DNA of 64,000 bases from Candidatus Doudnabacteria bacterium (GCA_039931165.1 JBDTSL010000003.1:10349-74348); one strand, 5' to 3'; positions 4,398 through 19,967 are shown, counted from the stretch's first letter. Notes: generated by a model from the sequence alone, not told the origin. A program made the numbers and translations.

Positions 4398-4412
4398 CAT
4401 CGGCGTCGACGG

Positions 4413-4455: not shown

Positions 4456-4475
4456 GCATATTATTTTTTTAATAT

Positions 4476-5170: not shown

Positions 5171-6721
5171 ATGAAAACTATCAATATTGACGGAAAAAGT
5201 TTGGACCTGGATTCAATCCTGTCGGTTTTAAACGATCCCGGTACAAAAGTAAATATCAGCGCCTCGACTCTCAAAAAGATCCAAAAGTCTGCTGATTTTT
5301 TAGGTAAAGAGATAATCAACTCAAAAGTTATTTACGGCATCAATACGGGATTTGGCCCCATGGCCTCTCATCTGATGGCCAGAGATCAGATAGTACAACT
5401 ACAGGAGAACCTGATCAGAAGCCATGCGGTGGGGGTAGGAGACCCTATGCCGGAAAAATTTGTTTTAGCAGCGATGATAATCCGGCTCAACACTTTGGCA
5501 GAAGGATATTCCGGAGCCTCGCAGGAATTGATCCAACAGCTCAAAATTTTCATCAATAAAAGAATAATCCCTGTGATTTTAGAACATGGGGGAGTGGGTG
5601 CCAGCGGCGATTTGGTCCAGCTGGCCCATATTGCTTTGGCTCTGATCGGTGAAGGCAAGGTTAATTATCAGGGAAAGACCCGGCCGACGTCCGATGTTCT
5701 GAAACAGTTGAAGATCAAGCCTTATCAGCTGAGACCGAAGGAAGGACTATCTCTGATTAACGGAACGTCTTTTATGTCCGGTATCGGGTCAGTGATATGC
5801 CATGACAGCGACATGCTTTTGAACTTAGCTATTAAAACCGGCGCGTGGTCTCTGGAACTGGTGAATGGTTATACCGACGGCTTTTCGGAAAAACTACATT
5901 CGTTGCGCCCGCATAAAGGCCAGGTGGCTGTCGCCCGGAAATTGAGGGAACTTTTGGCTAGCTCAAAGTTGCTGAAATCCCGCGAGTTGATAAACAAGCA
6001 GGTTAATCTTGGTTCTGATGTGAAAGAGATCCCGGAGTTTGTCCAGGAAGTTTATTCCATCCGCTGTATCCCGCAAATTTTGGGCCCAATTTACGATACG
6101 CTCCAGAAAACCAAACAGGTCATCGAAACCGAGATTAATTCCGTCACGGACAACCCGATCGTCTATGTGGATAAAAAGACATTCCTGCATGGAGGCAATT
6201 TCCACGGTGATTATATTTCATCCTCATTGGATCAGCTGAAGATGACATTGGTCAGGTTGACCATGCTGTCGGAGAGACGAGTCAACTTTTTTTTAAATCA
6301 CAATGTTAATAGATTTTTGCCCCCATTTATCAATTTAAACAAAATTGGATTAAACTTGGGCTTGCAAGCTCTGCAGTTTCCTGCAACTTCGACTACCGCG
6401 AAAAGCCAAACATTAGCATACCCCCAATATGTCCACTCCATCCCCACGAACGCGGACAACCAGGACATTGTCAGCATGGGCACAGACTCCGCACTTATCA
6501 CTACCCAAGTGGTGGATAATGCTTTTGTGGTTTTGGCTATAGAGTTGGTAACCTTGGCCCAGGCAGTGGATTATCTCAAATATCAAAACAAACTTTCTAA
6601 ATCCTCAAATGAACTTTATAAAGCAGTACGCCGGATCTTGCCCAAGGTTGTGGAAGACCGGATGATCGGATATGACCTAACAATGCTGGTATCAGAAGTA
6701 AAGAAAGGCGTTATAAAATAA
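5171..6721 (+). CDS. MIO-dependent aromatic amino acid ammonia-lyase / aminomutase (HAL/PAL/TAL family)
   Basis: 'HGGVGASGDLVQLAHIALALIGEG' carries the Ala-Ser-Gly triad that forms the MIO cofactor. 'YGINTGFGPMASHL' is also present. 516 aa. Confidence 0.85.
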   Translation: MKTINIDGKSLDLDSILSVLNDPGTKVNISASTLKKIQKSADFLGKEIINSKVIYGINTGFGPMASHLMARDQIVQLQENLIRSHAVGVGDPMPEKFVLAAMIIRLNTLAEGYSGASQELIQQLKIFINKRIIPVILEHGGVGASGDLVQLAHIALALIGEGKVNYQGKTRPTSDVLKQLKIKPYQLRPKEGLSLINGTSFMSGIGSVICHDSDMLLNLAIKTGAWSLELVNGYTDGFSEKLHSLRPHKGQVAVARKLRELLASSKLLKSRELINKQVNLGSDVKEIPEFVQEVYSIRCIPQILGPIYDTLQKTKQVIETEINSVTDNPIVYVDKKTFLHGGNFHGDYISSSLDQLKMTLVRLTMLSERRVNFFLNHNVNRFLPPFINLNKIGLNLGLQALQFPATSTTAKSQTLAYPQYVHSIPTNADNQDIVSMGTDSALITTQVVDNAFVVLAIELVTLAQAVDYLKYQNKLSKSSNELYKAVRRILPKVVEDRMIGYDLTMLVSEVKKGVIK

Positions 6722-6722
6722 A

Positions 6723-7826
6723 ATGTTGGAGCCACCGAGAATATTTAAGGACAAAAAAGATGCTCCGGCGAATGCCAAGGTCATAGACGCATTTTCGTCT
6801 TCACTGACAGAGCTTTTTTTTATTGCTCATCCTCATTTGAAGAAAGGAATGCCGGAGGTGGATGCTGAACTGCAAAAATATCTGGAAGCAAATACGATCC
6901 CGGATATTTGGATTTATTACCCCGAAACAAATACCCTAGTGCGTACCTTGCCGGAAGAGGAATATTTCAGGCTTCGGACGGCAAGAAATAGAGATTTAAT
7001 TTCAGAGCAGGAACAAAACAATTTTCGCAGCATTACCGTGGGCATCGCCGGATTATCGGTTGGGTCGTCGGTGTTAAATATCCTTGTTCTGAGCGGGGGC
7101 CCGAAAGTTCTGAAGATAGCCGATTTTGATACTTTAGAAGTCTCCAATTTAAACCGCATCAGAGCGGGCCTGGCCGATGTTGGCACAAACAAAACCGAGA
7201 TAGCGGCGAGGGAAGTTTGGGAGCTGGACCCTTTTGCACAGCTTAAGCTGTACCACGACGGACTGAACAAGGAAAATATTGAGGAATTTATCTTGGGAGA
7301 ACCTCGACTCGGGGTCTTCGTAGATGCCATGGACAGCATTGATCTTAAAATTTTAGCCAGATTGATATGCAAAAAAAATAAAATTCCCGTGCTTTCTGCT
7401 ACGGATAACGGCGACAGCGTAATTCTGGACATAGAAAGATTTGATCTGGAGCCCGGCCGGGAGATTTTTCACGGGCTGGTTAAAGATATAGAACAATTAG
7501 ACCTGGACCATCTTGATTATAAGTCTTGGCTTAATTTGGCTGCCCAGATAGTTGGCCCGGAATATTTAACCGAGTCAATGCAGGATTCAGTTCTTAAAAT
7601 CGGCAAATCATTGGCCAGCGTCCCGCAGTTAGGCGCCTCTGCGGCAATCGGGGGATCTGCTTGCAGTTTTGCTATCAGAAGGATTGCTAACAAGCAAGCT
7701 CTAAATTCAGGCCGCTCTATCATCAGTCTGGAAGAAAAATTAATCCCAGGGTTCGGCGACCCGGAGAGTGTTTTGTCGAGAAGCACAAAAACAGAACAAT
7801 TTGTCCGATCTTTCGGGCAAAAATAA
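6723..7826 (+). CDS. E1-like / ThiF-MoeB family adenylyltransferase with ~75-aa N-terminal extension
   Basis: 'RTARNRDLI...ITVGIAGLSVGS' is the Rossmann motif. 'KIADFDTLEVSNLNRI' is the canonical DxDxVExSNLNRQ motif. Confidence 0.8.
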   Translation: MLEPPRIFKDKKDAPANAKVIDAFSSSLTELFFIAHPHLKKGMPEVDAELQKYLEANTIPDIWIYYPETNTLVRTLPEEEYFRLRTARNRDLISEQEQNNFRSITVGIAGLSVGSSVLNILVLSGGPKVLKIADFDTLEVSNLNRIRAGLADVGTNKTEIAAREVWELDPFAQLKLYHDGLNKENIEEFILGEPRLGVFVDAMDSIDLKILARLICKKNKIPVLSATDNGDSVILDIERFDLEPGREIFHGLVKDIEQLDLDHLDYKSWLNLAAQIVGPEYLTESMQDSVLKIGKSLASVPQLGASAAIGGSACSFAIRRIANKQALNSGRSIISLEEKLIPGFGDPESVLSRSTKTEQFVRSFGQK

Positions 7827-7827
7827 T

Positions 7828-9267
7828 ATGACGCAAGAAATAAAAAATATACTGAATATTTTTCACACTGCCGCCAGGGAAGTGCCTGCTTACAGAAGTT
7901 TTTTGAAGGCCAATAAGATAGATCCGAAAAAAATAAAAATGTTCGAGGATTTTGAACGCCTGCCGATAATGGATAAACATAATTTTATTCATAAATATCC
8001 GTTTGAGCAGTCGTTCAGCAGAAAAAAAATTCCCGCCATGATCTCCGCTTCATCGGGCTCATCCGGCAAGCCCACATTTTGGCCGCGGGATGATTTACAG
8101 GAGCAGCACGGAGGCGAGATCCACCTGCGGATCTTCAGGGATATTTTCGGCATCAAGCCAGACCAGCCGACCCTGGTAATTGACTGTTTTGCTACCGGCA
8201 TCTGGGTAGCGGGTAATTTTACCCTGTCATCCTGCCGTTACGTCTCGCGCCAGGGGTATAATTTGACCTCCGTAACGCCGGGCATTGAAATAGAGGATAT
8301 CCTCAGCTGTATTAAAATTTTAGGGCCCCATTTTAAAAACGTGATCATAGCCGGATATCCGCCGTTTATGATGGACGTCTTCGTGGAAGCGATCAAAAGG
8401 GGAATTAAAATTCCAAAAAATCTCAAGGTTATGACTTCCGGAGATAAGTTTTCCGAAGAATGGAGAGATGCCGTGTTAAAATTGCTTCATCTGGACGGCT
8501 TGAGTTCTGTCATAAGCGTCTACGGCTGCGCCGACGCGTCATTGCTGGGATTTGAAACTGCCGCGAGCATTTTTTTACGAAGAAAATCCCTTGAGGTTCC
8601 TCAACTTTACCATCGCCTATTCGGTTCCGAAAAATCACTGCCGACTATTTTGCAATACGATCCCAAATACGTATTTTTTGAAGAAAATGGCCAGGAATTG
8701 ATTTTTACCGCCAACACCAGCATCCCTTTGATCCGCTACAATATTCATGATGTGGGAAACGTACTTACTCATCAGGAAGCTGCTGCGATCTTATCCGAAT
8801 ATAAGCTTTTGGAAGAAGCAAATCGTCACGGATTTAAGGATTGGCAGCTGCCGTTTGTGGTAAAAAAGGGACGAACCGATGTCGCGGTAACTTTTTACGC
8901 ATTAAATATTTATCCCGAGGACATCCTAGCCGGAATTGAGGATCGCAGAGTAAAAAAGTTTTTAACTGGAGACTTTTTTTCATACAACCAAGATATCAAG
9001 AACCACAAACAGCAAAAATTGTTCATTAAGCTGCAGCTTTCGCCAAAGACAAAACTTTCCGCAAAAATAAAAGAACTGATAGGCAACAGCATTGTTGAGA
9101 ATTTGAAAAAGACCAGCACCGAGTACCGCAAATTATTTGCAGCTATCGGCAATAGAGCATTGCCAGAAATTTTATTTACCAAAAGCAAGGATTTTAAGAT
9201 CGATCATCACCGAGGCCTGATTGATATTCAAGGGAAAAAACCGAAAGTCACATTGGGGGAAAAATAA
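7828..9267 (+). CDS. PaaK-like adenylate-forming enzyme (phenylacetate-CoA ligase / coenzyme F390 synthetase family)
   Basis: 'ISASSGSSGKPTFWP' is the ANL P-loop, placed near residue 80 as in PaaK. The ORF-track start at 7768 overlaps the upstream gene. The internal ATG at 7828 ('MTQEIKN') abuts the upstream stop. Confidence 0.65.
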   Translation: MTQEIKNILNIFHTAAREVPAYRSFLKANKIDPKKIKMFEDFERLPIMDKHNFIHKYPFEQSFSRKKIPAMISASSGSSGKPTFWPRDDLQEQHGGEIHLRIFRDIFGIKPDQPTLVIDCFATGIWVAGNFTLSSCRYVSRQGYNLTSVTPGIEIEDILSCIKILGPHFKNVIIAGYPPFMMDVFVEAIKRGIKIPKNLKVMTSGDKFSEEWRDAVLKLLHLDGLSSVISVYGCADASLLGFETAASIFLRRKSLEVPQLYHRLFGSEKSLPTILQYDPKYVFFEENGQELIFTANTSIPLIRYNIHDVGNVLTHQEAAAILSEYKLLEEANRHGFKDWQLPFVVKKGRTDVAVTFYALNIYPEDILAGIEDRRVKKFLTGDFFSYNQDIKNHKQQKLFIKLQLSPKTKLSAKIKELIGNSIVENLKKTSTEYRKLFAAIGNRALPEILFTKSKDFKIDHHRGLIDIQGKKPKVTLGEK

Positions 9268-9277
9268 TTAGAACTTT

Positions 9278-10333
9278 ATGGAAACAAACATTAAAAAAAT
9301 TTTGGAAATAGCGGTTCTTGCTCCTTCTGGGGACAATTCCCAACCTTGGAAATTTTCTATCAAAGACGATACATTGTATGTGATTCTTGTTCGAAATGCT
9401 GATGATTCAGCTTATAATTTTATGGAGCGAGGATCTTTGATCGGCCATGGGGCAGTATTAGAAAATATTAATATTATTTCGCGGCATCTAGGCCTCAATG
9501 CCAATATACAACTTTTCCCGGAAGGCAAAAATTCAGACCTGGTTGCTAAAATTTCATTTCTGCCTACCGCAAACCAAGACACTGGTCTGTTTGAAGCTAT
9601 AGAAAAGCGTTGCACTAATAGGAAGCAGTATAAAGCACTGAATATTTCAGCAAATCATGAAAAGGAAATTCTTTCAATACCATTAGAAAAACCACTACTT
9701 AACTTTTCTTTATTGAAAGATAGGGCGAAAATTACAGATTTGGCCAACACCATAAATCTCAACGAAAGAATGTTTCTGGAAAATTATTATGTACATAAAG
9801 GATTATTTGGTTTTATCAGATGGACAAAGGAAGAGGAGCTGAAATATAAAACAGGTATGTATATAAAAACCTTGGAGCTCCAACCTCCTCAGGAATTTGC
9901 GATGAAGATATTTAGAAGGTGGCCGATAATTAATTTTTTTAACAAATTTAACATTGCGGCTATGGTAGCGAAAGACAGCGCTAAACTTTACACCACTTCG
10001 GCTGCGTTTGGTTTAATTACGGCTCCAGATTTATCCGAAGAAAGTTTAATCGCTACGGGCAGAATGATGCAGAGGATTTGGCTCACCGCTACAAAATTAG
10101 GTGTGAGTATGCAGCCTACTGCAGGCTTGCTTTATTTGGCTCAAAGAGTAAACGAGGAGGGAACCAAAATATTTTCGGCCAAACACGTTGAAATGCTAAA
10201 GACTGCAGAACAAAAAATAAAAGGAATATTTAAATTGTCAAACGAAGTTCCAACTTTGCTTTTTCGTTTGGGATATGCCGATCCTCCTTCCGCCACATCA
10301 ATAAAACATCCTTATTTATTAAAAAATATATGA
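9278..10333 (+). CDS. Nitroreductase-family flavoprotein, tandem-domain (~350 aa) type
   Basis: The N-terminal 'VLAPSGDNSQPWKF' matches the nitroreductase signature. The length is roughly twice a canonical NfsB fold. Confidence 0.7.
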   Translation: METNIKKILEIAVLAPSGDNSQPWKFSIKDDTLYVILVRNADDSAYNFMERGSLIGHGAVLENINIISRHLGLNANIQLFPEGKNSDLVAKISFLPTANQDTGLFEAIEKRCTNRKQYKALNISANHEKEILSIPLEKPLLNFSLLKDRAKITDLANTINLNERMFLENYYVHKGLFGFIRWTKEEELKYKTGMYIKTLELQPPQEFAMKIFRRWPIINFFNKFNIAAMVAKDSAKLYTTSAAFGLITAPDLSEESLIATGRMMQRIWLTATKLGVSMQPTAGLLYLAQRVNEEGTKIFSAKHVEMLKTAEQKIKGIFKLSNEVPTLLFRLGYADPPSATSIKHPYLLKNI

Positions 10334-11058
10334 AAAACAAATTGTTTTTTCCAAAAAGGATTCCCGAACCTACCGCTATGGGAAAAATTGAATCAGAGGT
10401 CTTCGAAAAAATGTCCAAAGAAAATTATCAAAGATGGATCCTGCCTCTTGTGGATGATCTGGAACGATTTATGGATAATAAAAACCGTACTATCCTTGAT
10501 ATTGGCTCAGGACCGGGGCTTTTGGTCAAAGAGATAGCAATACGCTTCAAGCAGTCGAAAGTAATTGGGCTGGATAATTCTGCAGTTGCAGTAAAATTAG
10601 CTAGAAAGAATTGCATAAAACAAAGAAATGTCAGCTTTGTTGTCGGGGACGCTACCAAATTACAATTCAAGAGCCAATCTTTCGATCTTGTCGTATGTAA
10701 AGATACCCTGCACCATTTTCCGAAAGTTAAGACTTGTATCAAAGAGATGCTTCGGGTCCTGAAAGATGGAGGAACTCTATATATCCAAGACTTAAGAAGA
10801 GATTTACCTCATTATTTGCTGAAGCAGGCGATGCCGCCGGACACGGTTATGAAAAAGCTCCAATATTATTCCGCACGCGCTGCTTATACTAAAGATGAGT
10901 TGAAAAAAATACTGAAGGAATTAGGTGTGCGCAAACTGAATATTCAAACAAAAAAAGTCACACCTCAAATGGCTAAAAAGTACAGGAAATTGAACGTGGA
11001 CCTGACCAGACTTAAGCAAAGTTTTATTACCCGGTACGTGGCAACAATAAAAAAATAG
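10330..11058 (+). CDS. Class I SAM-dependent methyltransferase
   Basis: Motif I 'ILDIGSGPGLL', motif II 'VIGLDNS' and 'LRVLKDGGTLYI' are present. ATGA overlap with the nitroreductase gene. Confidence 0.8.
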   Translation: MKNKLFFPKRIPEPTAMGKIESEVFEKMSKENYQRWILPLVDDLERFMDNKNRTILDIGSGPGLLVKEIAIRFKQSKVIGLDNSAVAVKLARKNCIKQRNVSFVVGDATKLQFKSQSFDLVVCKDTLHHFPKVKTCIKEMLRVLKDGGTLYIQDLRRDLPHYLLKQAMPPDTVMKKLQYYSARAAYTKDELKKILKELGVRKLNIQTKKVTPQMAKKYRKLNVDLTRLKQSFITRYVATIKK

Positions 11059-12738
11059 ATGAATCCAAGCATTTTTCAGAACATACGGAACATTGACCTC
11101 TTGTCGGTCGGAATTGCCACTGCTTCTATTGGGATAATGGGTTTTATCATTTATTTTAATGATAAAAAGAACAGCATCAATCAGACTTTTCTGGCCCTGT
11201 CCGTGATGGGCATTTTTTGGAGTGCTTTTAATTATTTAAGTTATCAATTTTACGACCCGGTTGTGGTAATTTGGCTGATCCGAATTGCCGTCTTTTTTGC
11301 AGTGTGGTTTTCTTTTTCTATTTTTAGGTTATTTTATATTTTTCCAAATAAAAGCCCAGAATTTGTAAAGGCATATTATTACTTATTTATTCCGATAACA
11401 GTTGTTTCGTCACTGCTAAACTTAACCCCATTGGTGTTTACCCGAGTGACTGCATTTACTGAGGGGCGGGTGTCGGAAGTGGCCAACGGACCTGCTATTG
11501 CTTTGTTTGGAATCGTTGTATTCGGGTTGGTCGGATGTGGCATATATTTGTTAGTTAAAAAAATCAGGCGGACTAAAGGAGTTGAAAGAAAGCAACTCGA
11601 CTTAATATTTTTCGGAATAACCATTACTTGTTTATTGCTGATAATTTTCAATTTTATTTTACCGGCCTTTTTAAACAATGCCGCTTATATTTCTTTTGGC
11701 GCGGTATTTTTGTTTCCTTTCATAGCTCTTACCGCTTACTCTATAATTAAACTGCATTTGTTTGATGTAAAAGTGTTTGCGACCGAAGTATTAACTTTTG
11801 TGCTCTCAATAGTTAATTTAATTGAGATTGTGACCGCAAAAGATACCCTGACGTTTGTTTTTCGTCTATCTATGTTCGCATTAGTATTAGGTTTTGGAAT
11901 TTTGCTGATAAGGAGCGTGCAAAAGGAAGTAGAGCTTAGGCGTCAACTGCAAATCTTAGACAAAGAACTTGAGGCCGCGAATGCGCAGCTGAAGATTTTG
12001 GACCAGGCCAGGGCCGAGTTTATCACTATCGCGTCCCATCAGCTTCGCACGCCGCCGGCCACTATCAAGTGGTATTTGGCCTCCATTCTGGACGGGGATT
12101 ATGGCAAGATGGACGCGGCAGTGCATGAACAGCTTCGTAAAACCGCTTCAACCAATGGTTCAATGATCTCGCTGATCGACGATCTGCTGAATGTTTCTAG
12201 GATTGAGCGGGGCAAGATGGAATTTATTTTCCAGCCCACGGATATGGCGGAGATCACCCAGATCACGGTTGACCAGCTCCTGCCGCAGGCGGAAATGAGA
12301 AAACTGCAGTTGATCTACGAAAAGCCGAAAGTACCCCTGCCGATAATCAACGCCGATAAAGAAAAACTGCGCCAGGTTATCAATAATTTGATTGATAATG
12401 CTATTAAATATACCCCGAAAGGTTCGATCACGGTCCAGCTCAGCCAGACCAAGGATGACATCATGGTGAAAGTCACCGATACGGGCAAAGGAGTAGATAA
12501 GGAACATCTCAAAAACGTATTTATAAAATTCGAACGCGGTAAAATTCCCGCTAAAAACTCCACCGGTCTGGGACTGGGGCTGTATGTGGCCAAAGTCATA
12601 GTCGAACAGCATAAAGGCAAGATCTGGGTCGAGTCGCCGGGCGTGGGTAAAGGCTCGAGCTTTATTTTCACCGTGCCGATCAAAGGCGAGGTCAACACCA
12701 CGGAATTCGACCTGACCAAGACCCAAACACCGGCTTGA
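11059..12738 (+). CDS. Sensor histidine kinase with polytopic (~7 TM) N-terminal sensor domain
   Basis: H-box 'ITIASHQLRTPPATIKWY', N-box 'NNLIDNAIKYT' and G-boxes 'DTGKGV' and 'GLGLYVAKVIVEQHKG'. Starts 1 nt after the methyltransferase stop. Confidence 0.85.
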   Translation: MNPSIFQNIRNIDLLSVGIATASIGIMGFIIYFNDKKNSINQTFLALSVMGIFWSAFNYLSYQFYDPVVVIWLIRIAVFFAVWFSFSIFRLFYIFPNKSPEFVKAYYYLFIPITVVSSLLNLTPLVFTRVTAFTEGRVSEVANGPAIALFGIVVFGLVGCGIYLLVKKIRRTKGVERKQLDLIFFGITITCLLLIIFNFILPAFLNNAAYISFGAVFLFPFIALTAYSIIKLHLFDVKVFATEVLTFVLSIVNLIEIVTAKDTLTFVFRLSMFALVLGFGILLIRSVQKEVELRRQLQILDKELEAANAQLKILDQARAEFITIASHQLRTPPATIKWYLASILDGDYGKMDAAVHEQLRKTASTNGSMISLIDDLLNVSRIERGKMEFIFQPTDMAEITQITVDQLLPQAEMRKLQLIYEKPKVPLPIINADKEKLRQVINNLIDNAIKYTPKGSITVQLSQTKDDIMVKVTDTGKGVDKEHLKNVFIKFERGKIPAKNSTGLGLGLYVAKVIVEQHKGKIWVESPGVGKGSSFIFTVPIKGEVNTTEFDLTKTQTPA

Positions 12739-12794
12739 AACGTATCTAGAGATAACAAAAAAACCTCGACATTAGTCGGGATTTTTTTAAATAT

Positions 12795-12886
12795 CCATAC
12801 TGTCAGTATATTCCAACTACTTGCATAAAACGCAAGCCAGGGCTCAATATAACGCTGTCAAGTATTGACAACAATCGACCCAATGC
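12795..12886. promoter_or_regulatory. Repeated promoter/operator module, copy R3
   Basis: TACTGTCAGTA (12798-12808, TACT-N3-AGTA), the conserved AACGCAAGCCAGGGCTCAATAT block and the palindrome TGTCAAGTATTGACA (12856-12870). Confidence 0.6.
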
Positions 12887-12961
12887 TTACACTTCATAAT
12901 GATTTGGTCGGCAATTCCGCAGGCCGCAATCACTCGTAAGCAACAATCGAAAAGAGGAATC

Positions 12962-13441
12962 ATGGAAATTCCGTCGACATTGGAAAACAAGTTGGCGAAT
13001 CTCGATCTCGAGCCGATCAAGGTCAAGCTCATGGATGCCGAAGAAGGGCCGGGTTGGTCGCTCAAGATGTGCGACTCGGTGGAGGTGCTTTACAAGCGCT
13101 TCCTGCTGCTCAACGCAACACATCCGCACATCGTTCCGACGCGAGAGATTGACCAGTTCTGGCACATGCACATTCTCGACACTTACAAGTACACCCAGGA
13201 CTGCGAAGACCTGTTCGGCCACTACTTACATCACTTCCCGTACTTTGGTATGCGGGGTGCCAGTGATGCCAGCGATTTGAAGCTGGCATTTGCCAATACG
13301 CTGGCTCTGTACGCTGCCAAGTACGGCGAACCGCTTGAAACGGCAGCGGCGATGTGCAACTGCTGTGACGATGGCGGCGGAGTGACACAGGGTGATCTCA
13401 AGGCCATTCGACCGACAATCGACCGATCACTCGCGATGTGA
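12962..13441 (+). CDS. DUF1399 / GRDP-like protein, paralogue 2 (GC-rich)
   Basis: 'YKRFLLLNATHPHIVPTREIDQFWHMHILDTYKYTQDC'. The RBS AAGAGGA precedes the ATG at 12962, so the longer 12899 start is unlikely. Confidence 0.55.
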   Translation: MEIPSTLENKLANLDLEPIKVKLMDAEEGPGWSLKMCDSVEVLYKRFLLLNATHPHIVPTREIDQFWHMHILDTYKYTQDCEDLFGHYLHHFPYFGMRGASDASDLKLAFANTLALYAAKYGEPLETAAAMCNCCDDGGGVTQGDLKAIRPTIDRSLAM

Positions 13442-13452
13442 AGGCTCATACA

Positions 13453-13487
13453 GGGGGATAAGTTGCTTTCCCCCTCTTTTTTTAAAT
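13453..13487 (+). terminator. Rho-independent terminator
   Basis: GGGGGA-taagttgctt-TCCCCC followed by TCTTTTTTTT. Confidence 0.6.
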
Positions 13488-13496
13488 CTATTAGAT

Positions 13497-14168
13497 ATGA
13501 TCACATTCTATACTAAATTAGCGAATTTATATGATAAAACCTATCTGAAAAAAGATTATCAGAAAGAAGTTTTATATTTGAAAAAATTTATTAAAGGTTC
13601 AGTTTTGGATGTTGGTTGTGGAACAGGTCGACATTTACAATATTTGAAAGATCACATACGAATTGGATTAGATAAAAGTTTGCAATTAATTAAACTTGCG
13701 AAACAAAATAATCCAGGGATTAAGTTTTTGCAAGGGGACATTGTTAATTTTAAAATTAATCAGAAATTTGATACGATTATCAGTTTGTTTACAGTGATTG
13801 CTTACCTAAATTCTAAGCAACTTGAGGAAGCTATTAATAATTTAGTCAGTCATTTGAACTCTAAAGGAATTTTAATTTTAGAACCTTTCGCTGAACCAAA
13901 AACCTTGTCATTGAAACCTTGGTTTAATTCCTATAATTCACCAACTTTAAAATTTACTCGATATGTGACTCTCAAAAAAATTAGAAATATAGCTAAACTA
14001 AATATTCAATGGTGGGTTAATGGAAATACTATTAAAGAAGTTCAACATTTATCATTATTTAAGCATAAACATATCATCAAATTATTAAATAAATATTGTG
14101 TTAAAGTCGAGTATTTGCCACCAACGCATTTATTTAGATACGGACTATTTGTGGCTAGAATTTCTTGA
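13497..14168 (+). CDS. Class I SAM-dependent methyltransferase (AT-rich)
   Basis: Motif I 'VLDVGCGTGRH' and motif II 'RIGLDKS'. The internal start 'MITFYTKL' was chosen because the longer ORF overlaps the upstream gene in a different frame. Confidence 0.7.
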   Translation: MITFYTKLANLYDKTYLKKDYQKEVLYLKKFIKGSVLDVGCGTGRHLQYLKDHIRIGLDKSLQLIKLAKQNNPGIKFLQGDIVNFKINQKFDTIISLFTVIAYLNSKQLEEAINNLVSHLNSKGILILEPFAEPKTLSLKPWFNSYNSPTLKFTRYVTLKKIRNIAKLNIQWWVNGNTIKEVQHLSLFKHKHIIKLLNKYCVKVEYLPPTHLFRYGLFVARIS

Positions 14169-14239
14169 ATATAAAAATAGTTAAGGGAACTATATACCTA
14201 AATCGGCTGGATCGCTTCACAAAAATATCTTTTCTTGAA

Positions 14240-14345
14240 TCGAACAGCGTAAAGGCAAGATCTGGGTCGAGTCGAAAGGGGAGGTAAAGGCGAGGTCAAC
14301 ACCACGGAATTCGACCTGACCAAGACCCAAACACCGGCTTGAAAT
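14240..14345 (+). pseudogene. Truncated duplicate of the 3' end of the histidine-kinase gene (direct repeat of 12602-12740 with a 35-bp internal deletion)
   Basis: 'CGAACAGCGTAAAGGCAAGATCTGGGTCGAGTCG' and 'AAAGGCGAGGTCAACACCACGGAATTCGACCTGACCAAGACCCAAACACCGGCTTGAAA' recur at 12602-12740. Confidence 0.8.
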
Positions 14346-14411
14346 ATATCGCCCGATTTGTTAGAATTGGTTAGCGTTCGGGCGTAGCTCAGCGGTAGAG
14401 CAGCTGACTGT

Positions 14412-14981
14412 GAACAAGTTCTTAAAGGCGGCATAAAGGTCTTATTTTATGCCAAAAGAGAAGAGAACATATTCCGACCGTTCTCAATACATTATCCAGG
14501 CGGTTACCAAGAGACGTAAAAAGCTCAGGGAAATGGCTAGGGTGTATAAAGGCGGTAAATGTATGATCTGTGGTTACGATCGCTGTCTAGGAGCGCTTGA
14601 TTTTCACCACATTGATCCTTCCAAGAAAAAGTTTGGAATATCCATGAACGGATTAACCAAATCTTGGGATAAGATCAAAGGCGAACTGGATAAGTGCATC
14701 TTAATTTGCGCGAATTGCCACAGAGAAATCCATGCAGGAATTACGCAGCTTCCTGGGGAAACCCAGGTTGAAAAACGAGGTGAACTCGGGGAAGCCCTGC
14801 ACCAGTAATCGGTACAGGGTAATCCCGAGCCAAGCTCCGACTTTTCAGTCGGAGAAGGTGTAGAGACTATCCCGCAAGGGAGTACTCCCAGCCCTTTCTT
14901 CGAAAGTGCTGGGCGGAAGCGCCTCGGACCCCTAATAGGGTTATGATATAGTCCATACTAAAGGCGACTTTAGATTAAATG
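14412..14981 (+). ncRNA. Group I self-splicing intron (570 nt) carrying an HNH endonuclease ORF
   Basis: Conserved core elements: R-like 'GAGACTA' (14863-14869) and S-like 'GATATAGTCC' (14944-14953), which form P7 (GACTA/TAGTC). Terminal G (omegaG) at 14981. Confidence 0.65.
14449..14808 (+). CDS. HNH homing endonuclease encoded within the group I intron
   Basis: 'CMICGYDRCLGALDFHHIDP...CILICANCHREIH' gives CxxC ... HH ... CxxCH, the HNH zinc-finger and catalytic motif. Confidence 0.8.
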   Translation: MPKEKRTYSDRSQYIIQAVTKRRKKLREMARVYKGGKCMICGYDRCLGALDFHHIDPSKKKFGISMNGLTKSWDKIKGELDKCILICANCHREIHAGITQLPGETQVEKRGELGEALHQ

Positions 14982-15025
14982 TAATCAGCGGGTCGCTGGT
15001 TCGAATCCAGCCGCCCGAGCCAAAT

Positions 15026-15056
15026 AAAAAAACCTGACTTCTGTCGGGTTTTTTTA
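15026..15056. terminator. Bidirectional terminator after the tRNA
   Basis: AAAAAAACCTGAC-ttct-GTCGGGTTTTTTT (one G-U pair in the stem). Confidence 0.7.
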
Positions 15057-15182
15057 TTTGTTTGACAGGCTGGATTCGAAGGGCAGAAGTGAGGCAAGAC
15101 CCCAGTCGCAGCCGAACGTCGACGGAAGCGAGGGCTCGCAGCTTCCGTCGCTGCCCCGGACATGAGCGCATCAGCGCGAATC

Positions 15183-15240
15183 CGAATCCAGCCGCCCGAG
15201 CCAAAAGAAAGAAACTGACTTCTGTCAGTTTCTTTCTTTT
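15183..15240 (+). repeat. Second copy of the tRNA 3' end (CGAATCCAGCCGCCCGAGCCAAA) plus a second terminator (AAAGAAAGAAACTGAC-ttct-GTCAGTTTCTTTCTTT): att-like scar
   Basis: A 21-nt exact repeat of 15002-15022. Both terminators share the core CTGACTTCTGTC. Inverted T-arm fragments GGCTGGATTCGAAGGG (15068-15082) and GGCGGATTCGAAGGG (15262-15273) follow each unit. Confidence 0.6.
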
Positions 15241-15284
15241 CGATTCCCGGCGGCGGATTCGAAGGGTTGAAGTCATACAATTAA

Positions 15285-16256
15285 TCAGACGCCAACTGAA
15301 TGTCGTACATGCTGTATCATTTTTACAATCGCTGCGACCACAGCTTCAGGCTGTTCAATTTGAATGCGGTGACCACTTTGATCTGCAAAGAACTGTTGGC
15401 TGTCAGTCGATAACTCTAAGAGGCTGGCCTGCGCGGCGGTGTGTTTGGCATCCTTATCTTTGCCGCGCGATAGAACGATTAAAGGCAATGCTCCCAGCGT
15501 GGTCACAGCCCTGGCTTGGGCTCCTCCTTCGGACATCCCCATGCCTTCGTCTAGGAAGGTTTGGACGGAACGGGGAGCCACGGAAAAAGCTGTAAAAGCT
15601 TGCTTATTCTCTGACGGTAGGTTTTCAATCGCGCCGAGCGGGCCTGCCAGCAAACGCACCAAACCGATGCGAGCCATCAAAGACGGCAAGGAATTTTTAC
15701 CAGGTTGCGGAGCTGGCTTAGGATTGGCACCGGAAGCGGGCAGGTCTTGGGCATCAATCAGCACCAACCCGGAGACTTCGGCCGGATAGTCATGAGTATA
15801 CACCCGCACGGTATATCCTCCGAGCGAATGGCCAACTAGTACATACGGTCCGTGTTCGTTGTCCTTAGCCAGTAAGGTATGTAATTCTTCAGCGAATTTA
15901 CGGGCGGTTCGCGGCTCGGGACTGGTCTCGCTCCATCCCATTCCTGCTCGATCATAACTGCAAACACGAGTGGTCTTAGCAACTTCGGGCTGCACCCAAC
16001 CCCAGACGGCGGACGAATCCCCCCATCCAGATTCGATTATCACAGTAGGGCTGCCAGTACCGGTGCAATTGATATGCAGGCGGTATCCGCCGACGTCAAC
16101 CATACGACCTGGAGGCGGGTAGGTACGCGCATCAGCCGCTTCAGATTTATTCTCGTAAATAGTGCCTGTTATTATTAAAAATAATAGAACCAGCACCGCT
16201 CTTGCGAGCCAAACTAACAGTTTTTGACCTCTACGGGCTAGAGTGAGTTTATTCAT
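15285..16256 (-). CDS. Alpha/beta-hydrolase fold protein (esterase/lipase-like), N-terminal membrane anchor, GC-rich
   Basis: Nucleophile elbow 'GHSLGG' and N-terminal TM 'LLVWLARAVLVLLFLIITG'. GC content is clearly above the surrounding sequence. Confidence 0.75.
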   Translation of the reverse strand: MNKLTLARRGQKLLVWLARAVLVLLFLIITGTIYENKSEAADARTYPPPGRMVDVGGYRLHINCTGTGSPTVIIESGWGDSSAVWGWVQPEVAKTTRVCSYDRAGMGWSETSPEPRTARKFAEELHTLLAKDNEHGPYVLVGHSLGGYTVRVYTHDYPAEVSGLVLIDAQDLPASGANPKPAPQPGKNSLPSLMARIGLVRLLAGPLGAIENLPSENKQAFTAFSVAPRSVQTFLDEGMGMSEGGAQARAVTTLGALPLIVLSRGKDKDAKHTAAQASLLELSTDSQQFFADQSGHRIQIEQPEAVVAAIVKMIQHVRHSVGV

Positions 16257-16453
16257 TTCTTTACAATAGCATTGTTTATGATAATACCATAACGCATCTT
16301 CGAATTTTTTACCCCTTTGTTTTAGTGCGTATTAGCGGTTCTGCGAATCAGAACAGCTCGAGCCATGAAAAAATCATTAACACGTTTGATGATTTTTTTG
16401 TTGTTTGAAATGCATGCTATACTTAAGAGCATCATTAAATACCAGAATAAACA

Positions 16454-17140
16454 ATGGCAATCGAATCAACGAGAAAAATATCTTTACTTGCAGGCGTGTT
16501 CTACGTACTAACTTTTATCTCGATCCCGACACTCGCGCTTTATGGTCCGATACATGATCCAAACTACATCGTGGGCTTGGGTCCCGATACTAAAGCACTT
16601 ATCGGTGCCGTTCTGGAGGTGATCGTGGCCCTGGCCGGCATCGGCACTGCCATTGCACTTTATCCGATGGTAAAGAAGCAGAATGAGGGAATGGCTTTGG
16701 GTTTTGTCATTACCCGGACATTGGAAGGCGCCACTATTTTCGCTGGCGTAGCTTGTCTTTTGTCGGTGGTGAGCCTCAGGCAAGCTGGAGCCGGAGCTGG
16801 TGCGTTGGTCACGGGGCATGCGCTGATGGCTCTATATGACCGCCTGTTCCTCCTCGGACAAAGCCTCATGCCAGGGATAAATGCCGTGTTACTCGGTACA
16901 TTATTATATCGATCGCGCCTGGTCCCTCGGTTTCTTCCTGTGCTCGGATTGATCGGAGCGCCATTGCTCCTCGCAGCCGACCTCGCCGTATTGTTTGGCC
17001 TCATCGACCGGGTATCTACGTTGGCACTGGTCACCGCACTGCCGATCGCACTGTGGGAGTTCTCGTTGGGCATCTGGCTGATTATAAAAGGGTTCAATCA
17101 ATCCGCAATAAATTCTTTAGAGGCAAAGACAGGCAATTAG
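16454..17140 (+). CDS. Integral membrane protein (DUF4386-like), GC-rich
   Basis: 228 aa with ~6 TM segments and 'LYRSRLVPRFLPVLGLIGAPL'. The family assignment is from memory. Confidence 0.45.
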   Translation: MAIESTRKISLLAGVFYVLTFISIPTLALYGPIHDPNYIVGLGPDTKALIGAVLEVIVALAGIGTAIALYPMVKKQNEGMALGFVITRTLEGATIFAGVACLLSVVSLRQAGAGAGALVTGHALMALYDRLFLLGQSLMPGINAVLLGTLLYRSRLVPRFLPVLGLIGAPLLLAADLAVLFGLIDRVSTLALVTALPIALWEFSLGIWLIIKGFNQSAINSLEAKTGN

Positions 17141-17273
17141 ATATTCTCAGTGTTTTTTGTTATTATGTAAATATGAAAACTAACTCAAGCCAAAAACTGA
17201 AAGACGGCGCCAAATGCAAGGTCATCGCCGCGCTTCTGTCTTACGCCAGTTTTCAGCTGGCTTATAAATCGCG

Positions 17274-17603
17274 ATGAGTCTGGTTTTCCGGAATATTCTG
17301 AAAACAAAGGGAGAAGGAAAGCCGCCTCTGCCGGCGCCGGGCTGGATCAAGAAACTTTTTCTTGACGATATGGCGTATGTGATCGGGGTCCTCTCCGCAG
17401 TTTTTAATATTCCCCAGTTGGTTGAGATCTGGGTAAATAAAAACGCCACCGGCGTATCATCATTGTCATGGACCGGATTTAGTTTGGTTTCGGTTTTCTG
17501 GCTTTATTATTCCATCGTCCATAAAGAAAAAGCCCTGATCCTGACTTTTTCCTTGACCCTGATCTTGCAGGCAGCCATCGCCTTGGGGAGTTTTATTTAT
17601 TGA
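17274..17603 (+). CDS. PQ-loop / SemiSWEET-like small transporter
   Basis: 'FNIPQLVEIW' PQ motif and three TM helices. Possible shorter start at 'MAYVIG'. Confidence 0.65.
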   Translation: MSLVFRNILKTKGEGKPPLPAPGWIKKLFLDDMAYVIGVLSAVFNIPQLVEIWVNKNATGVSSLSWTGFSLVSVFWLYYSIVHKEKALILTFSLTLILQAAIALGSFIY

Positions 17604-17800
17604 AATACCAATCCTCGCTTGCGGTGACGATGCCGAAGTCAATCATGATTCATCTGAAGTGGAAAGAGCATCAGAAAGTAGTGGTAAAAAAAATCCGTGG
17701 AGGGGTGCAGGTTAAGTATTGGAAGAAAAAACACTAGCCTAAGCTCGTGTTTTTTGTTATGATTATAATATTAAGGGTCAGCTGTCTGAAATAAAAATCC

Positions 17801-18223
17801 ATGCTAATAAAATTTTTCGACAAACTTGAGGATAAGGTGCGACGACGGCTAAGCCATTACCCGATTTGGTACGGCATTGCCGGCGGCATCGGCGTAGTGC
17901 TGTTTTGGCGCGGTGTCTGGCATACCACCGACTATATTATGCTCAGATTCGTTTACGCGAGGTTTTACGACTCCAGCACCAACCTTTCGGAATTGATATG
18001 GTGGGATGGGCCGCTTTCAATAGTATTGGGGTCGGGATTGCTGTTGATGATCGGTTTGTTTGTCTCCAACTTTGTCGGCAACGAAATAATAATCTCCGGC
18101 CTTAAAGGCGAACAAAAACTTTCGGAAAAAACCGTAAAGCAGCTTAAATCTGAAAGTGAGGCGACCAGAGAAATGAGAAGGGATATCAAGAAAATATCAG
18201 CCAAGCTCGACAGCCTAAAATAA
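17801..18223 (+). CDS. Hypothetical membrane protein with C-terminal coiled-coil
   Basis: ORF of 140 aa with two TM segments and a charged C-terminus. Confidence 0.45.
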   Translation: MLIKFFDKLEDKVRRRLSHYPIWYGIAGGIGVVLFWRGVWHTTDYIMLRFVYARFYDSSTNLSELIWWDGPLSIVLGSGLLLMIGLFVSNFVGNEIIISGLKGEQKLSEKTVKQLKSESEATREMRRDIKKISAKLDSLK

Positions 18224-18260
18224 GGCGCGCGTTTATGGGAACGGTAAGTATTATAAATAC

Positions 18261-18692
18261 ATGAACATGTTTAAAAAAGTTAAAGCGAATAGTGTTGGAA
18301 GCTACCTTAAGGCCGTACCAAAGGACCGCCAGGAAGCTGTTCTTTTCCTGCATAATTTTATAAAAAAGACTGTACCGAAACTCAAACCGCACTTTGCCTA
18401 CAATATGCTTGGCTACGGATCGTTTAAGGTCCGCAACTACAAAAAGAACTTGGTTGATTGGCCCACTATCGCTTTGGCCAACCAGAAAAATTATATCAGC
18501 CTGTATATTTGCGCTGTGGACCACGGCCAATATATCGCCGAAAAGAATAAAAAGGAATTAGGGAAGGTCAGTGTCGGCAAAAGTTGTATCCGTTTTAAAA
18601 AGGCAGAAGATCTGAATTTGCCGGGGTTACAAAAAGTCCTGCTGTTTGCCCAAAGATCACCGGGGCTTGCCGGCGTCGGAGCCAGAAAATGA
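18261..18692 (+). CDS. DUF1801 (YdhG-like) domain protein
   Basis: Resembles DUF1801: 'YLKAVPKDRQEAVLFLHNFIKKTVPKLKPHFAYNMLGYG'. Confidence 0.55.
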   Translation: MNMFKKVKANSVGSYLKAVPKDRQEAVLFLHNFIKKTVPKLKPHFAYNMLGYGSFKVRNYKKNLVDWPTIALANQKNYISLYICAVDHGQYIAEKNKKELGKVSVGKSCIRFKKAEDLNLPGLQKVLLFAQRSPGLAGVGARK

Positions 18693-19066
18693 ATTTTAAT
18701 AAGGCTCTCGCGGCCAACCGCAAAGCCAAGGCCCAATGGAAAGATCTAACCCCGCTCGCGCGGATGGACTTTGTGTATTGGATAGAGTCAGCCAAGAAGG
18801 GGGAAACACATGACCGCCGCATTACCAAAGCCTGCTCGATCCTGGCCGAGGGCAAGCGCCGGCCATGCTGCTATTCCATAGTGCCGATGAATCTTTATAA
18901 AAAACTTACAGCTACGCCTAAGGCTAAAGCTGCTTGGAAAAATCTTACGCCGATAGAACGTAGGGAATTTGTTTATAGGATAGATTCTGCTAAGGATTCG
19001 GAAGCCCGCGAGGTTCGGATTGAGAAAACCTGTACGATGCTTGCGGCAGGAAAGCGGCGGCCGTGA
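18689..19066 (+). CDS. YdeI/OmpD-associated (OmdA) family protein with two tandem copies of the domain
   Basis: Internal duplication: 'KAKAQWKDLTPLARMDFVYWIESAKKGETHDRRITKACSILAEGKRRP' and 'KAKAAWKNLTPIERREFVYRIDSAKDSEAREVRIEKTCTMLAAGKRRP'. Confidence 0.6.
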   Translation: MNFNKALAANRKAKAQWKDLTPLARMDFVYWIESAKKGETHDRRITKACSILAEGKRRPCCYSIVPMNLYKKLTATPKAKAAWKNLTPIERREFVYRIDSAKDSEAREVRIEKTCTMLAAGKRRP

Positions 19067-19075
19067 TCAGGATAC

Positions 19076-19951: not shown

Positions 19952-19967
19952 TAACTATTTCGCCCTT

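What the first reader, a model, noticed from the sequence alone, without database searches (positions are those of the whole stretch)
12602..14345. 1.5-kb cassette inserted behind the histidine-kinase gene, flanked by a duplication of the kinase 3' end
The last ~140 bp of the kinase gene, including its stop (12602-12740), recur at 14240-14345 as a truncated copy missing 35 internal bp. The copies bracket the third R-type promoter module, the GC-rich DUF1399 paralogue and an AT-rich methyltransferase.

The arrangement suggests the cassette entered by recombination at the gene end, with the original terminus preserved as a remnant. Direct repeats of this length would also permit precise excision.

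The duplicated copy explains the antisense ORF 14198-14434, which mirrors antisense ORF 12315-12758.
Basis: seen in the sequence. Interest (0 to 1): 0.65.

Follow-up and report, generated by a model that had tools for sequence, protein, structure and literature searches.

The report
Kinase-gene end duplicated around inserted genes
In this Candidatus Doudnabacteria genome a 1.5-kb patchwork of foreign-looking genes sits between a sensor-kinase gene and a tRNA gene, flanked by two copies of the kinase's last ~140 bases; it is a real but ordinary recombination scar, not a mobile element.

Summary
The last 137 nt of the histidine-kinase (HK) gene, its stop codon and a few following bases (12602-12746) recur at 14240-14350. 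The match is 34/35 nt, then 59 nt identical, against none expected by chance.

The distal copy is a dead fragment. It has a 33-nt deletion between AAAGGC repeats, a 1-nt frameshift, and His-to-Arg at an invariant residue. It still carries the codons of the nearest orthologues (ESKGEG), whereas the live gene reads ESPGVG. Its stop codon overlaps the conserved -35 box of the tRNA-Asn promoter.

Between the copies lie:
- the HK terminator;
- the third copy of a lineage-specific promoter module;
- a 54% GC GRDP/UCP032817-like gene, whose relatives include Proteobacteria;
- a 27% GC orphan methyltransferase.

An independent Logan assembly reproduces the methyltransferase-to-remnant junction exactly.

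No recombinase, terminal inverted repeats or phage/plasmid similarity were found. None of about 80 related HK loci shows such a duplication. No close relative exists in public data, so no empty site could be found. In relatives the HK-to-tRNA-Asn interval varies from 37 nt to 6.6 kb.

Best reading: one illegitimate or one-ended homologous recombination event in a rearrangement hotspot. This is a known kind of scar, and its interest is low to moderate.

The parts
11059..12738 (+). Sensor histidine kinase gene (559 aa; HisKA_7TM, HisKA, HATPase_c), a conserved orthologue in Candidatus Doudnabacteria
   Evidence: Pfam hits. The protein search returned a 100% self hit from an NCBI Doudnabacteria MAG and 2440 homologues. 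Upstream synteny is conserved in L001-L004 and L087.
12602..12746 (+). Repeat copy 1: the live 3' end of the kinase gene (codons for VEQHKGKIWVESPGVGKGSSFIFTVPIKGEVNTTEFDLTKTQTPA*), its stop codon and 8 further nt
12765..12790 (+). Intrinsic terminator of the kinase gene (stem-loop CTCGACATTAGTCGGG followed by a T-run). It resembles the terminator after the orthologue in L087.
   Evidence: Terminator scan. Alignment with the L087 post-stop region scores 13 against 6.8 +/- 1.2 for shuffles.
12773..12893 (+). Promoter module, copy 3 of 3. It contains a TACTGTCAGTA palindrome, the invariant core AAACGCAAGCCAGGGCTCAATAT, a -35 box TTGACA (12865-12870), a 17-nt spacer and a -10 box TACACT (12888-12893).
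   Evidence: Repeat family D1, alignment A1, promoter scan 10/12. A related -35 motif occurs near TrmB in L003, L042 and L069.
12962..13441 (+). GC-rich (about 54%) gene for a 159-aa UCP032817-like / GRDP-like protein of unknown function. It is only distantly related to the second such gene at 3119-3610.
   Evidence: Homologues are at most 63% identical and carry PF27765, some also PF07173; one is named Betaproteobacteria. The two window genes share 39% identity over 33 aa. Weak DNA matches to Variovorax and Azospirillum plasmids. GC content.
13453..13482 (+). Terminator-like hairpin with T-run between the GC-rich gene and the AT-rich gene
13497..14168 (+). AT-rich (about 27% GC) class I SAM-dependent methyltransferase, 223 aa. 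It is an orphan: the best non-self homologue is 33-34% identical.
   Evidence: Pfam Methyltransf_25/31/11, homologue search, GC content
14169..14239 (+). AT-rich spacer ending at the illegitimate junction 14239|14240. It has no similarity to the kinase gene.
   Evidence: Local alignment scores no better than shuffles. The Logan contig L086 covers this stretch at 100% identity.
14240..14350 (+). Repeat copy 2: a dead remnant of the kinase 3' end. It has a 33-nt deletion, a 1-nt frameshift and H518R, and it retains the orthologue-type K-G-E codons.
   Evidence: reproduced in the independent assembly L086
14339..14367 (+). tRNA-Asn promoter: TTGAAA, 17-nt spacer, TG-extended TAGAAT. The -35 box overlaps the remnant's stop codon (GGCTTGAAA).
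   Evidence: Promoter scan 10/12. Both boxes are conserved at the same distance from the tRNA in L003 and L007.
14378..15022 (+). tRNA-Asn(GTT) gene. It is interrupted at anticodon position 35/36 by a 570-nt group I intron (14412-14981) that encodes an HNH endonuclease (14449-14808). This is the right-hand neighbour of the scar.
   Evidence: ARAGORN with introns allowed, Rfam RF00028 at 57.6 bits, Pfam HNH

Best explanation
This is a recombination scar. At some point in this lineage the kinase gene ended directly in front of the tRNA-Asn gene, with its stop codon lying inside the tRNA promoter's -35 box.

A single recombination event then placed about 1.5 kb between the two genes. The inserted DNA comprises a kinase-type terminator, a lineage-type promoter module, a GC-rich GRDP-like gene and an AT-rich methyltransferase.

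The incoming DNA was joined on its left through homology with the kinase 3' end, and so supplied or reconstituted a complete gene end. On its right it was joined illegitimately at 14239|14240, about 140 nt upstream of the resident stop codon. The resident gene end was therefore not replaced. It was pushed downstream as a duplicate.

That duplicate is now a decaying pseudogene fragment. It still provides the -35 region of what is, within this window, the only detected tRNA-Asn gene.

Because kinase stop codon and tRNA promoter overlapped, only an insertion that duplicated this stretch could keep both functions. This may be why such an event survived.

The event type is one-ended (homology-facilitated illegitimate) recombination, or equivalently Campbell-type single-crossover integration of a fragment carrying a kinase end.

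What is shown: the repeat, its anatomy, the decay of copy 2, the ancestral-type codons in copy 2, the promoter overlap, the mosaic composition, and the absence of mobility genes.

What is inferred: the order of events, the donor, and the enzymology.
For: - The repeat is real and sharply bounded.
- Copy 2 has a frameshift, a 33-nt deletion and H518R at an invariant residue.
- Copy 2 keeps the K-G-E codons AAAGGGGAGG, shared with L001 and L055. The protein motif KGEG is shared with the nearest orthologues P0002 and P0004-P0008. Copy 1 has P-G-V instead.
- The tRNA-Asn promoter boxes are conserved in L003 and L007, and the -35 box overlaps the remnant's stop codon.
- The blocks differ strongly in composition: 35.7% GC (terminator plus module), 53.5%, 27.3%, against 45% for the window.
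- The GRDP-like gene's relatives include Proteobacteria. The methyltransferase is an orphan.
- Logan contig L086 from SRR26386599 equals window 13299-14315 at 100%, so the junction and the remnant's deletion exist in reads.
- The kinase-to-tRNA-Asn interval is variable in relatives: 37 nt, about 2 kb, and 4.9-6.6 kb with different cargo.
- The literature describes one-ended recombination that leaves displaced 3' ends behind a conserved gene (PMC5361080; PMC3240628).
Against: - No empty site, donor or sister strain is available. The nearest kinase is 74% identical in protein, and exact-pattern scans found nothing. The direction and order of events therefore rest on inference.
- The promoter module in the insert is of a type native to this lineage. 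The insert was therefore not imported whole from a distant donor.
- Five substitutions clustered in 12 nt of the live copy, next to 94 nt with a single difference, are not explained by simple duplication. They need a second allele, a short conversion tract or a multi-base mutation.
- Homology-facilitated illegitimate recombination as described usually deletes resident DNA rather than duplicating it.
Confidence: 0.55

Rival explanations
1. The imported piece is the right-hand one. A donor segment carrying a kinase 3' end, the tRNA promoter and the intron-containing tRNA-Asn (about 14240-15182) was copied in. This happened during repair of a double-strand break made by the intron's HNH homing endonuclease in a resident intron-less tRNA-Asn, by co-conversion of flanks with illegitimate resolution. 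The kinase remnant hitch-hiked with the intron. The truncated tRNA 3' end at 15183-15203 would be what is left of the resident tRNA.
For: - The remnant starts only 172 nt from the intron insertion site.
- An HNH ORF lies in the intron, with 87-88% identical versions in L003 and L055.
- Intron-plus and intron-less tRNA-Asn alleles both occur in the clade.
- A second, truncated tRNA 3' end plus terminator lies just downstream, at 15183-15280.
- tRNA-Asn changes orientation and distance relative to the kinase among relatives.
Against: - The two tRNA-end units are only about 83% alike, with compensatory changes in their hairpins. The kinase copies are 97-100% alike. The two duplications therefore look different in age.
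- This model needs a donor in which the kinase abuts tRNA-Asn in the same orientation, and none was seen among the fetched loci.
- Most Patescibacteria tRNA introns appear to have limited mobility (PMC13011429).
Confidence: 0.13
2. A larger tandem duplication once produced two kinase copies. The second copy lost all but its last approximately 110 nt through deletion or replacement by the AT-rich DNA. The cassette accumulated between the copies in several steps.
For: - The intervening DNA is a mosaic of at least three compositional blocks, which suggests more than one event.
- Other duplications occur nearby: modules 1 and 2, and the tRNA 3' end.
Against: - It needs more steps than the alternatives.
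- No trace of kinase sequence lies upstream of 14240.
- The near-identity of the copies argues for a young duplication, leaving little time for stepwise accumulation.
Confidence: 0.12
3. The scar is the remnant of a site-specific integrative element. Like e14 or phage 21 in the E. coli icd gene, such an element would carry a substitute 3' end for its target gene. Its integrase and most of its cargo would since have been lost.
For: - The topology is identical: an intact gene with a substitute end, and the original end displaced to the far side.
- The AT-rich orphan methyltransferase is typical cargo of a mobile element.
- The location next to a tRNA gene, with variable cargo in relatives, fits an integration hotspot.
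Against: - No tyrosine or serine recombinase lies in the segment or in the flanking ORFs scanned (1318-5063 and 9278-25086).
- There are no phage matches and only gene-level proteobacterial plasmid matches.
- None of about 80 related kinase loci shows a second copy of its own 3' end, so the site is not used recurrently.
- The segment carries a promoter module native to this lineage.
Confidence: 0.07
4. Assembly artefact. The path through the 59-nt identical block was mis-resolved. The true structures would be kinase directly followed by tRNA-Asn, plus a separate 1.6-kb circle or strain variant.
For: - The window comes from a metagenome-assembled genome.
- The Logan k=31 contig stops 30 nt into the 59-nt block, as expected at a repeat. 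Connectivity across the block is therefore not independently confirmed.
Against: - The remnant has its own mutations and its own unique left flank, and these are reproduced exactly by an independent assembler.
- A 59-nt repeat is shorter than standard reads, so it is normally resolved.
- The alternative pairing would simply be the excised form of the same structure.
Confidence: 0.05

Closest known systems
Homology-facilitated illegitimate recombination and 'C-terminal displacement' scars (Rhs, CDI and T6SS effector-immunity arrays)
   Same: New DNA enters behind a conserved gene, using that gene as a one-sided homologous anchor. The far end is joined illegitimately. The previous 3' end is shifted downstream and persists as an orphan fragment (PMC5361080; PMC3240628).
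   Different: - The new and old gene ends are nearly identical here, rather than alternative toxin tips.
- There is no effector-immunity logic.
- It is a single event, not an array.
- Resident DNA was duplicated rather than displaced together with a different domain.
- The donor is unknown.
e14 / phage 21 integration into the icd gene of E. coli (from my own knowledge, not checked in the paper library)
   Same: The insertion lies at the 3' end of a protein-coding gene. A substitute 3' end keeps the gene intact. The original end remains as a diverging direct repeat on the far side.
   Different: There is no integrase, no phage or element genes, and no recurrent use of the site in about 80 related loci.
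Campbell-type single-crossover integration of a circular molecule carrying a short homologous segment
   Same: It yields exactly this topology: the homologous segment becomes a direct repeat on both sides of the inserted DNA. Recombination between the repeats reverses the integration.
   Different: There is no evidence of a circular donor or replicon. The repeat copies differ by a clustered patch and deletions.
tRNA-linked genomic islands / variable regions
   Same: The scar lies immediately upstream of a tRNA gene, in an interval whose gene content differs in every relative. A duplicated tRNA 3' end lies just downstream.
   Different: The repeats that flank this insert derive from the kinase gene, not from the tRNA. 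The insert is only 1.5 kb and has no mobility genes.

Membership tests
Site-specific integrative element (prophage, ICE or island with att repeats in a gene's 3' end) | Tyrosine or serine recombinase encoded at one end of the element | tested here: not met
   Pfam scans of the cassette ORFs and of flanking ORFs between 1318-5063 and 9278-25086 returned only a methyltransferase, HNH, a hydrolase, DUF4386, a PQ-loop protein, DUF1801, OmdA, Peptidase_S11, DUF2207 and DHO_dh.
Site-specific integrative element (prophage, ICE or island with att repeats in a gene's 3' end) | Direct repeats derived from the target gene's end flank the inserted DNA | tested here: met
   12602-12746 and 14240-14350
Site-specific integrative element (prophage, ICE or island with att repeats in a gene's 3' end) | The same attachment site is used recurrently in related genomes | tested here: not met
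   No second copy of the locus's own kinase 3' end in 76 loci with a full kinase end. No second copy of this kinase's C-terminus in any of 84 loci.
Transposon / IS / MITE | Terminal inverted repeats, a short target-site duplication, and a transposase | tested here: not met
   No inverted repeat pairs the two ends of 12747-14239. The flanking duplication is about 110-145 nt, not 2-15 nt. There is no transposase domain.
Integron gene cassette | An attC recombination site at the cassette's 3' end and an IntI integrase nearby | tested here: not met
   No imperfect palindrome lies at the 3' boundary, and no integrase is present. No dedicated attC model was run.
One-ended (homology-facilitated illegitimate) or Campbell-type recombination scar | Homologous anchor at one border of the foreign DNA | tested here: met
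   The live kinase end is continuous with the insert. It shares 34/35 and 59/59 nt with the displaced end.
One-ended (homology-facilitated illegitimate) or Campbell-type recombination scar | Illegitimate junction, with no extended homology, at the other border | tested here: met
   Similarity stops abruptly at 14239|14240, and upstream alignment scores equal those of shuffles. Microhomology at the joint cannot be judged without the donor.
One-ended (homology-facilitated illegitimate) or Campbell-type recombination scar | The inserted DNA is of foreign origin | tested here: inconclusive
   The GC blocks of 53.5% and 27.3%, against 45% for the window, point outward, as do the homologues: the GRDP-like gene has relatives in Proteobacteria and the methyltransferase is an orphan. 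The promoter module, however, is of a type native to the lineage.
One-ended (homology-facilitated illegitimate) or Campbell-type recombination scar | An unoccupied site exists in sister genomes | not testable with these tools
   The nearest relative is 74% identical in protein. Exact-pattern scans of metagenome, genome and viral collections were empty.
Group I intron at tRNA-Asn position 35/36 of Patescibacteria (neighbouring feature) | A group I ribozyme core inserted between anticodon positions 35 and 36 of tRNA-Asn(GUU), sometimes with an HNH gene | tested here: met
   RF00028 at 57.6 bits, above the gathering score of 50. ARAGORN reports intron (35,570). Pfam HNH. The family is described in PMC13011429.

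The most novel reading that the evidence does not exclude
The kinase-to-tRNA-Asn interval may be a hotspot in this Doudnabacteria clade because the HNH homing endonuclease of the tRNA-Asn intron repeatedly breaks the locus. Error-prone, one-ended repair in these reduced genomes would then capture foreign DNA and duplicate about 100-140 nt of flanking functional sequence.

Three such duplication-flanked scars lie within 15 kb of this window:
- promoter modules 1 and 2 around ORF 2294-2695;
- the kinase end;
- the tRNA 3' end.

On this reading they would be footprints of one general gene-capture route in CPR bacteria. In that route, only insertions that duplicate overlapping signals survive.
Probability: 0.1. 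Interest if true: 0.6.

Novelty: new member of a known kind. Interest (0 to 1): 0.3.

Why it matters
The scar is a clean, datable footprint of how a reduced CPR (Doudnabacteria) genome took up foreign genes without any visible mobile-element machinery. It also shows how tightly packed signals constrain which insertions survive: here a kinase stop codon lies inside a tRNA promoter. In addition it marks the kinase-to-tRNA-Asn interval as a rearrangement hotspot in the clade. On its own it is a single, ordinary recombination scar. It would gain weight only if population data showed excision, or if the same kind of scar proved common in CPR genomes.

Tried and rejected
- **Exact-protein look-ups.** Look-ups of the window's kinase, GRDP-like protein and HNH protein found nothing on record. 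Only the methyltransferase returned a Logan contig.
- **Exact-pattern scans.** I scanned for the kinase end and the promoter-module core in metagenome, genome and viral contig collections. All were empty, so no strain variant, empty site or donor was found.
- **Scan of related kinase loci.** No locus had a second copy of its own kinase 3' end or of this kinase's C-terminus. No kinase remnant lies upstream of tRNA-Asn in L002, L003 or L007.
- **Closest relative's downstream gene.** I tested whether the gene downstream of the kinase in L001 matches the hydrolase at 15285-16256. It does not.
- **Methyltransferase orthology.** I tested whether the cassette methyltransferase is the orthologue of the one next to tRNA-Asn in L003. 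It is not; that one matches window 4476-5063 at 43%.
- **Recent duplication of the GRDP-like genes.** The two GRDP-like genes share only 39% identity over 33 aa, so they are not recent duplicates.
- **Context of the closest GRDP-like homologue.** L005 was uninformative.
- **Mosaic origin of the kinase.** The per-segment identity profile is suggestive: the N-terminus is closest to P0002, while the catalytic part is equally close to P0003-P0008. This is also explicable by domain-specific rates, so I did not pursue it.
- **Phage and plasmid similarity.** Only short gene-level matches to proteobacterial plasmids were found.


Full report
**Source and setting.** The window comes from a Candidatus Doudnabacteria (CPR/Patescibacteria) metagenome-assembled genome. 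The kinase, the GRDP-like protein and the methyltransferase each have a 100% self hit from an NCBI Doudnabacteria MAG contig of 102,960 nt. ORF 11059-12738 encodes a 559-aa histidine kinase with HisKA_7TM, HisKA and HATPase_c domains. It is a conserved orthologue. Its upstream neighbours (response regulator, ThiF, a 499-aa protein, a nitroreductase-like protein) recur in relatives L001-L004 and L087.

**The observation.**
- Two blocks of the kinase 3' end recur 1.6 kb downstream. Block 12602-12636 matches 14240-14274 at 34/35.
- Block 12682-12746 matches 14286-14350 at 63/65. Of this, 59 nt are identical through the stop codon.
- Neither block is expected even once more by chance.
- The flanks on both sides are unrelated, with alignment scores equal to shuffles.
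- The internal difference is 34 nt net. It consists of a 33-nt in-frame deletion between two AAAGGC hexamers, a 1-nt deletion, and five substitutions within four codons.
- In the kinase's reading frame, copy 2 reads IEQRKGKIWVESKGEVKARSTPRNST*. It is therefore a frameshifted fragment.

**Which copy is the old one.**
- The live gene encodes ESPGVGKGS. The remnant encodes ESKGE-.
- The closest orthologues P0002 and P0004-P0008 all have ESKGEGKGS (P0003 has ESTGEGKGS). At DNA level, L001 and L055 share AAAGGGGAGG with the remnant. The remnant thus keeps the ancestral state of this patch.
- The remnant also carries CAT to CGT (His518Arg) at a residue invariant in 30 orthologues. That is expected of a sequence released from selection.
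- The live copy's five clustered substitutions lie next to 94 nt with a single difference. They look like a second allele, a short conversion tract or a multi-base mutation. P-G-V occurs in more distant kinases of the family. I could not resolve this detail.

**The right-hand neighbour.**
- Thirty-three nt after the remnant's stop codon begins tRNA-Asn(GTT), 14378-15022.
- A 570-nt group I intron splits the gene after anticodon position 35. RF00028 scores 57.6 bits, and ARAGORN finds the gene only when introns are allowed. The intron carries an HNH ORF.
- This intron class is already described for Patescibacteria (PMC13011429).
- A promoter-like site, TTGAAA-17-(TG)TAGAAT, lies at 14339-14367. 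Its -35 box is the remnant's stop region, GGCTTGAAA.
- The same two boxes, at the same distance from the tRNA, are conserved in L003 and L007, where no kinase end is adjacent.
- Kinase stop codon and tRNA promoter therefore overlapped. An insertion between them could preserve both only by duplicating the overlap. This is my inference.

**What lies between the copies.** There are four compositional pieces.
1. The kinase terminator (12765-12790). It resembles the terminator after the L087 orthologue.
2. Copy 3 of a roughly 104-nt promoter module.
 - The other copies are at 2076-2179 and 2784-2887.
 - The module has an invariant core and a TTGACA-17-TACACT promoter.
 - A related -35 motif occurs twice near the TrmB gene in L003, L042 and L069, so the module is of a type native to the lineage.
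 - The exact core was not found in any public collection scanned.
3. A gene in a 53.5% GC block encoding a 159-aa UCP032817/GRDP-like protein.
 - Its best non-self homologues are 57-63% identical. One is named Betaproteobacteria.
 - DNA-level matches fall on Variovorax and Azospirillum plasmids.
 - Direct Pfam support for DUF1399/GRDP-like is sub-threshold at E = 0.08.
 - It is only distantly related to the second such gene at 3119-3610.
4. After a terminator-like hairpin, a 27% GC block holding an orphan class I methyltransferase. Its best non-self homologue is 33-34% identical.

The 'cassette' is thus a patchwork, not a unit from one donor.

**Is it real DNA?** Logan contig L086, assembled independently from run SRR26386599, is 100% identical to window 13299-14315. 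It covers the end of the GRDP-like gene, the methyltransferase, the spacer, the junction and the remnant with its deletion. It stops 30 nt into the 59-nt identical block, as a k=31 unitig must at a repeat. The remnant and its left junction therefore exist in reads. Only the pairing of entries and exits across the 59-nt block remains unconfirmed.

**Is it a mobile element?** I found no evidence that it is.
- No recombinase or transposase lies in the segment or in the flanking ORFs scanned.
- No inverted repeats pair its ends.
- It has no phage similarity and only gene-level plasmid similarity.
- Among 84 related loci, none carries a second copy of this kinase's C-terminus. Among 76 loci with a full kinase end, none repeats its own 3' end.
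- No kinase remnant precedes tRNA-Asn in L002, L003 or L007.

**Comparative context.** The nearest kinase is 74% identical (L001, a 3.6-kb contig) and the next are about 61%. No empty site can therefore be found. In the clade, tRNA-Asn stays near the kinase but the interval is fluid:
- 37 nt, convergent, in L055;
- about 2 kb, on the opposite strand, in L087 and L056;
- 4.9-6.6 kb, on the same strand, in L002, L003 and L007, with a cytochrome-oxidase operon or chitin-related genes as cargo.

Downstream, DUF1801 and OmdA genes recur. The interval is a rearrangement hotspot.

**Mechanism.**
- The topology is an intact gene end, then the insert, then the displaced old end. One-ended homologous plus illegitimate recombination produces this. 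So does a Campbell-type single crossover of a fragment that carries a kinase end.
- The same logic is invoked for orphan 3' ends behind rhs, CDI and T6SS effector genes (PMC5361080; PMC3240628).
- It also matches e14 and phage 21 in icd (my own knowledge), but without an integrase.
- I give this reading a confidence of 0.55.

**Rivals.**
- The remnant-plus-tRNA/intron piece was the incomer, via homing-endonuclease break repair (0.13). A truncated tRNA 3' end at 15183-15203 fits this. However, the two tRNA-end units are only about 83% alike, against 97-100% for the kinase copies.
- A larger tandem duplication followed by loss (0.12).
- A degraded integrative element (0.07).
- Misassembly across the 59-nt block (0.05).

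**Excision.** RecA-type recombination within the 59-nt identical block would restore an intact kinase directly upstream of the tRNA promoter. It would release a 1,604-bp circle. A crossover in the 35-nt block would instead give the kinase the remnant's deletion and frameshift. No data here bear on whether excision occurs.

**Verdict.** The feature is an ordinary recombination scar in a variable region, not a discrete mobile cassette. Its interest is low to moderate.

Noticed in passing
window 14378-15022: tRNA-Asn(GTT) is split at anticodon position 35/36 by a 570-nt group I intron (14412-14981) that encodes an HNH endonuclease (14449-14808). Default ARAGORN and the Rfam gathering run on the whole window both missed it. 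The same intron position occurs in relatives L003 (557 nt, HNH 88% identical in protein), L055 (543 nt) and L007 (218 nt, no endonuclease gene). L002, L087 and L056 lack the intron. This intron class is already published (PMC13011429).
   Followed up: yes
window 15002-15097 and 15183-15280: The last 21 nt of tRNA-Asn, its terminator hairpin and about 35 further nt are duplicated at about 83% identity, with compensatory changes in the hairpin. The two units flank 85 nt of GC-rich filler just before the stop codon of the convergent alpha/beta-hydrolase gene. This looks like an older scar of the same general kind, or an att-like remnant.
   Followed up: partly
window 2076-2179, 2784-2887, 12773-12876: Three copies of a promoter module. 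Each has a TACT-N3/5-AGTA palindrome, the invariant core AAACGCAAGCCAGGGCTCAATAT, and TTGACA-16/17-TAnAnT. Copy 1 abuts the start of the divergent TrmB-family regulator gene (1318-2097, minus strand). Copy 2 keeps a remnant of that start codon. Copies 1 and 2 bracket an AT-rich 133-aa membrane ORF (2294-2695), which is another insertion flanked by a duplication of about 100 nt. This is possibly a TrmB operator/regulon. Related -35 motifs lie near TrmB in L003, L042 and L069.
   Followed up: partly
window 41132, 45970, 48615, 55125, 62746 (each about 70 nt): A dispersed repeat family, GAGATTGCTTCGTCGCCGCC...(about 15 nt)...AAAGCGGCTCCTCGCAAA, with five good copies. At least some appear to lie inside or next to coding regions. 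Its nature is unknown.
   Followed up: no
window 5171-9267: An aromatic amino-acid lyase gene (Lyase_aromatic, E = 1e-163) sits where relatives L002, L003 and L087 have a Glu/Leu/Phe/Val dehydrogenase. The order of the ThiF gene and the 499-aa gene is swapped relative to those relatives. An extra methyltransferase (10330-11058) precedes the kinase, as in L001.
   Followed up: no
window 2990-4281: A second GC-rich island (about 53% GC) lies behind promoter module 2. It encodes another GRDP-like protein (3119-3610) translationally coupled to a TauD/TfdA-family dioxygenase (3607-4281).
   Followed up: no
L038 10225-10479 (minus strand): A GRDP-like homologue (34% identity in protein) lies about 0.8 kb downstream of, and convergent with, the kinase orthologue of another Patescibacteria genome. 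This may be coincidence or a loose functional link.
   Followed up: no
L003 and L007, downstream of the kinase orthologue: In these Doudnabacteria relatives, a complete cytochrome-oxidase operon (COX2, COX1, COX3, COX4) plus UbiA fills the kinase-to-tRNA-Asn interval. This is unusual cargo for CPR bacteria.
   Followed up: no
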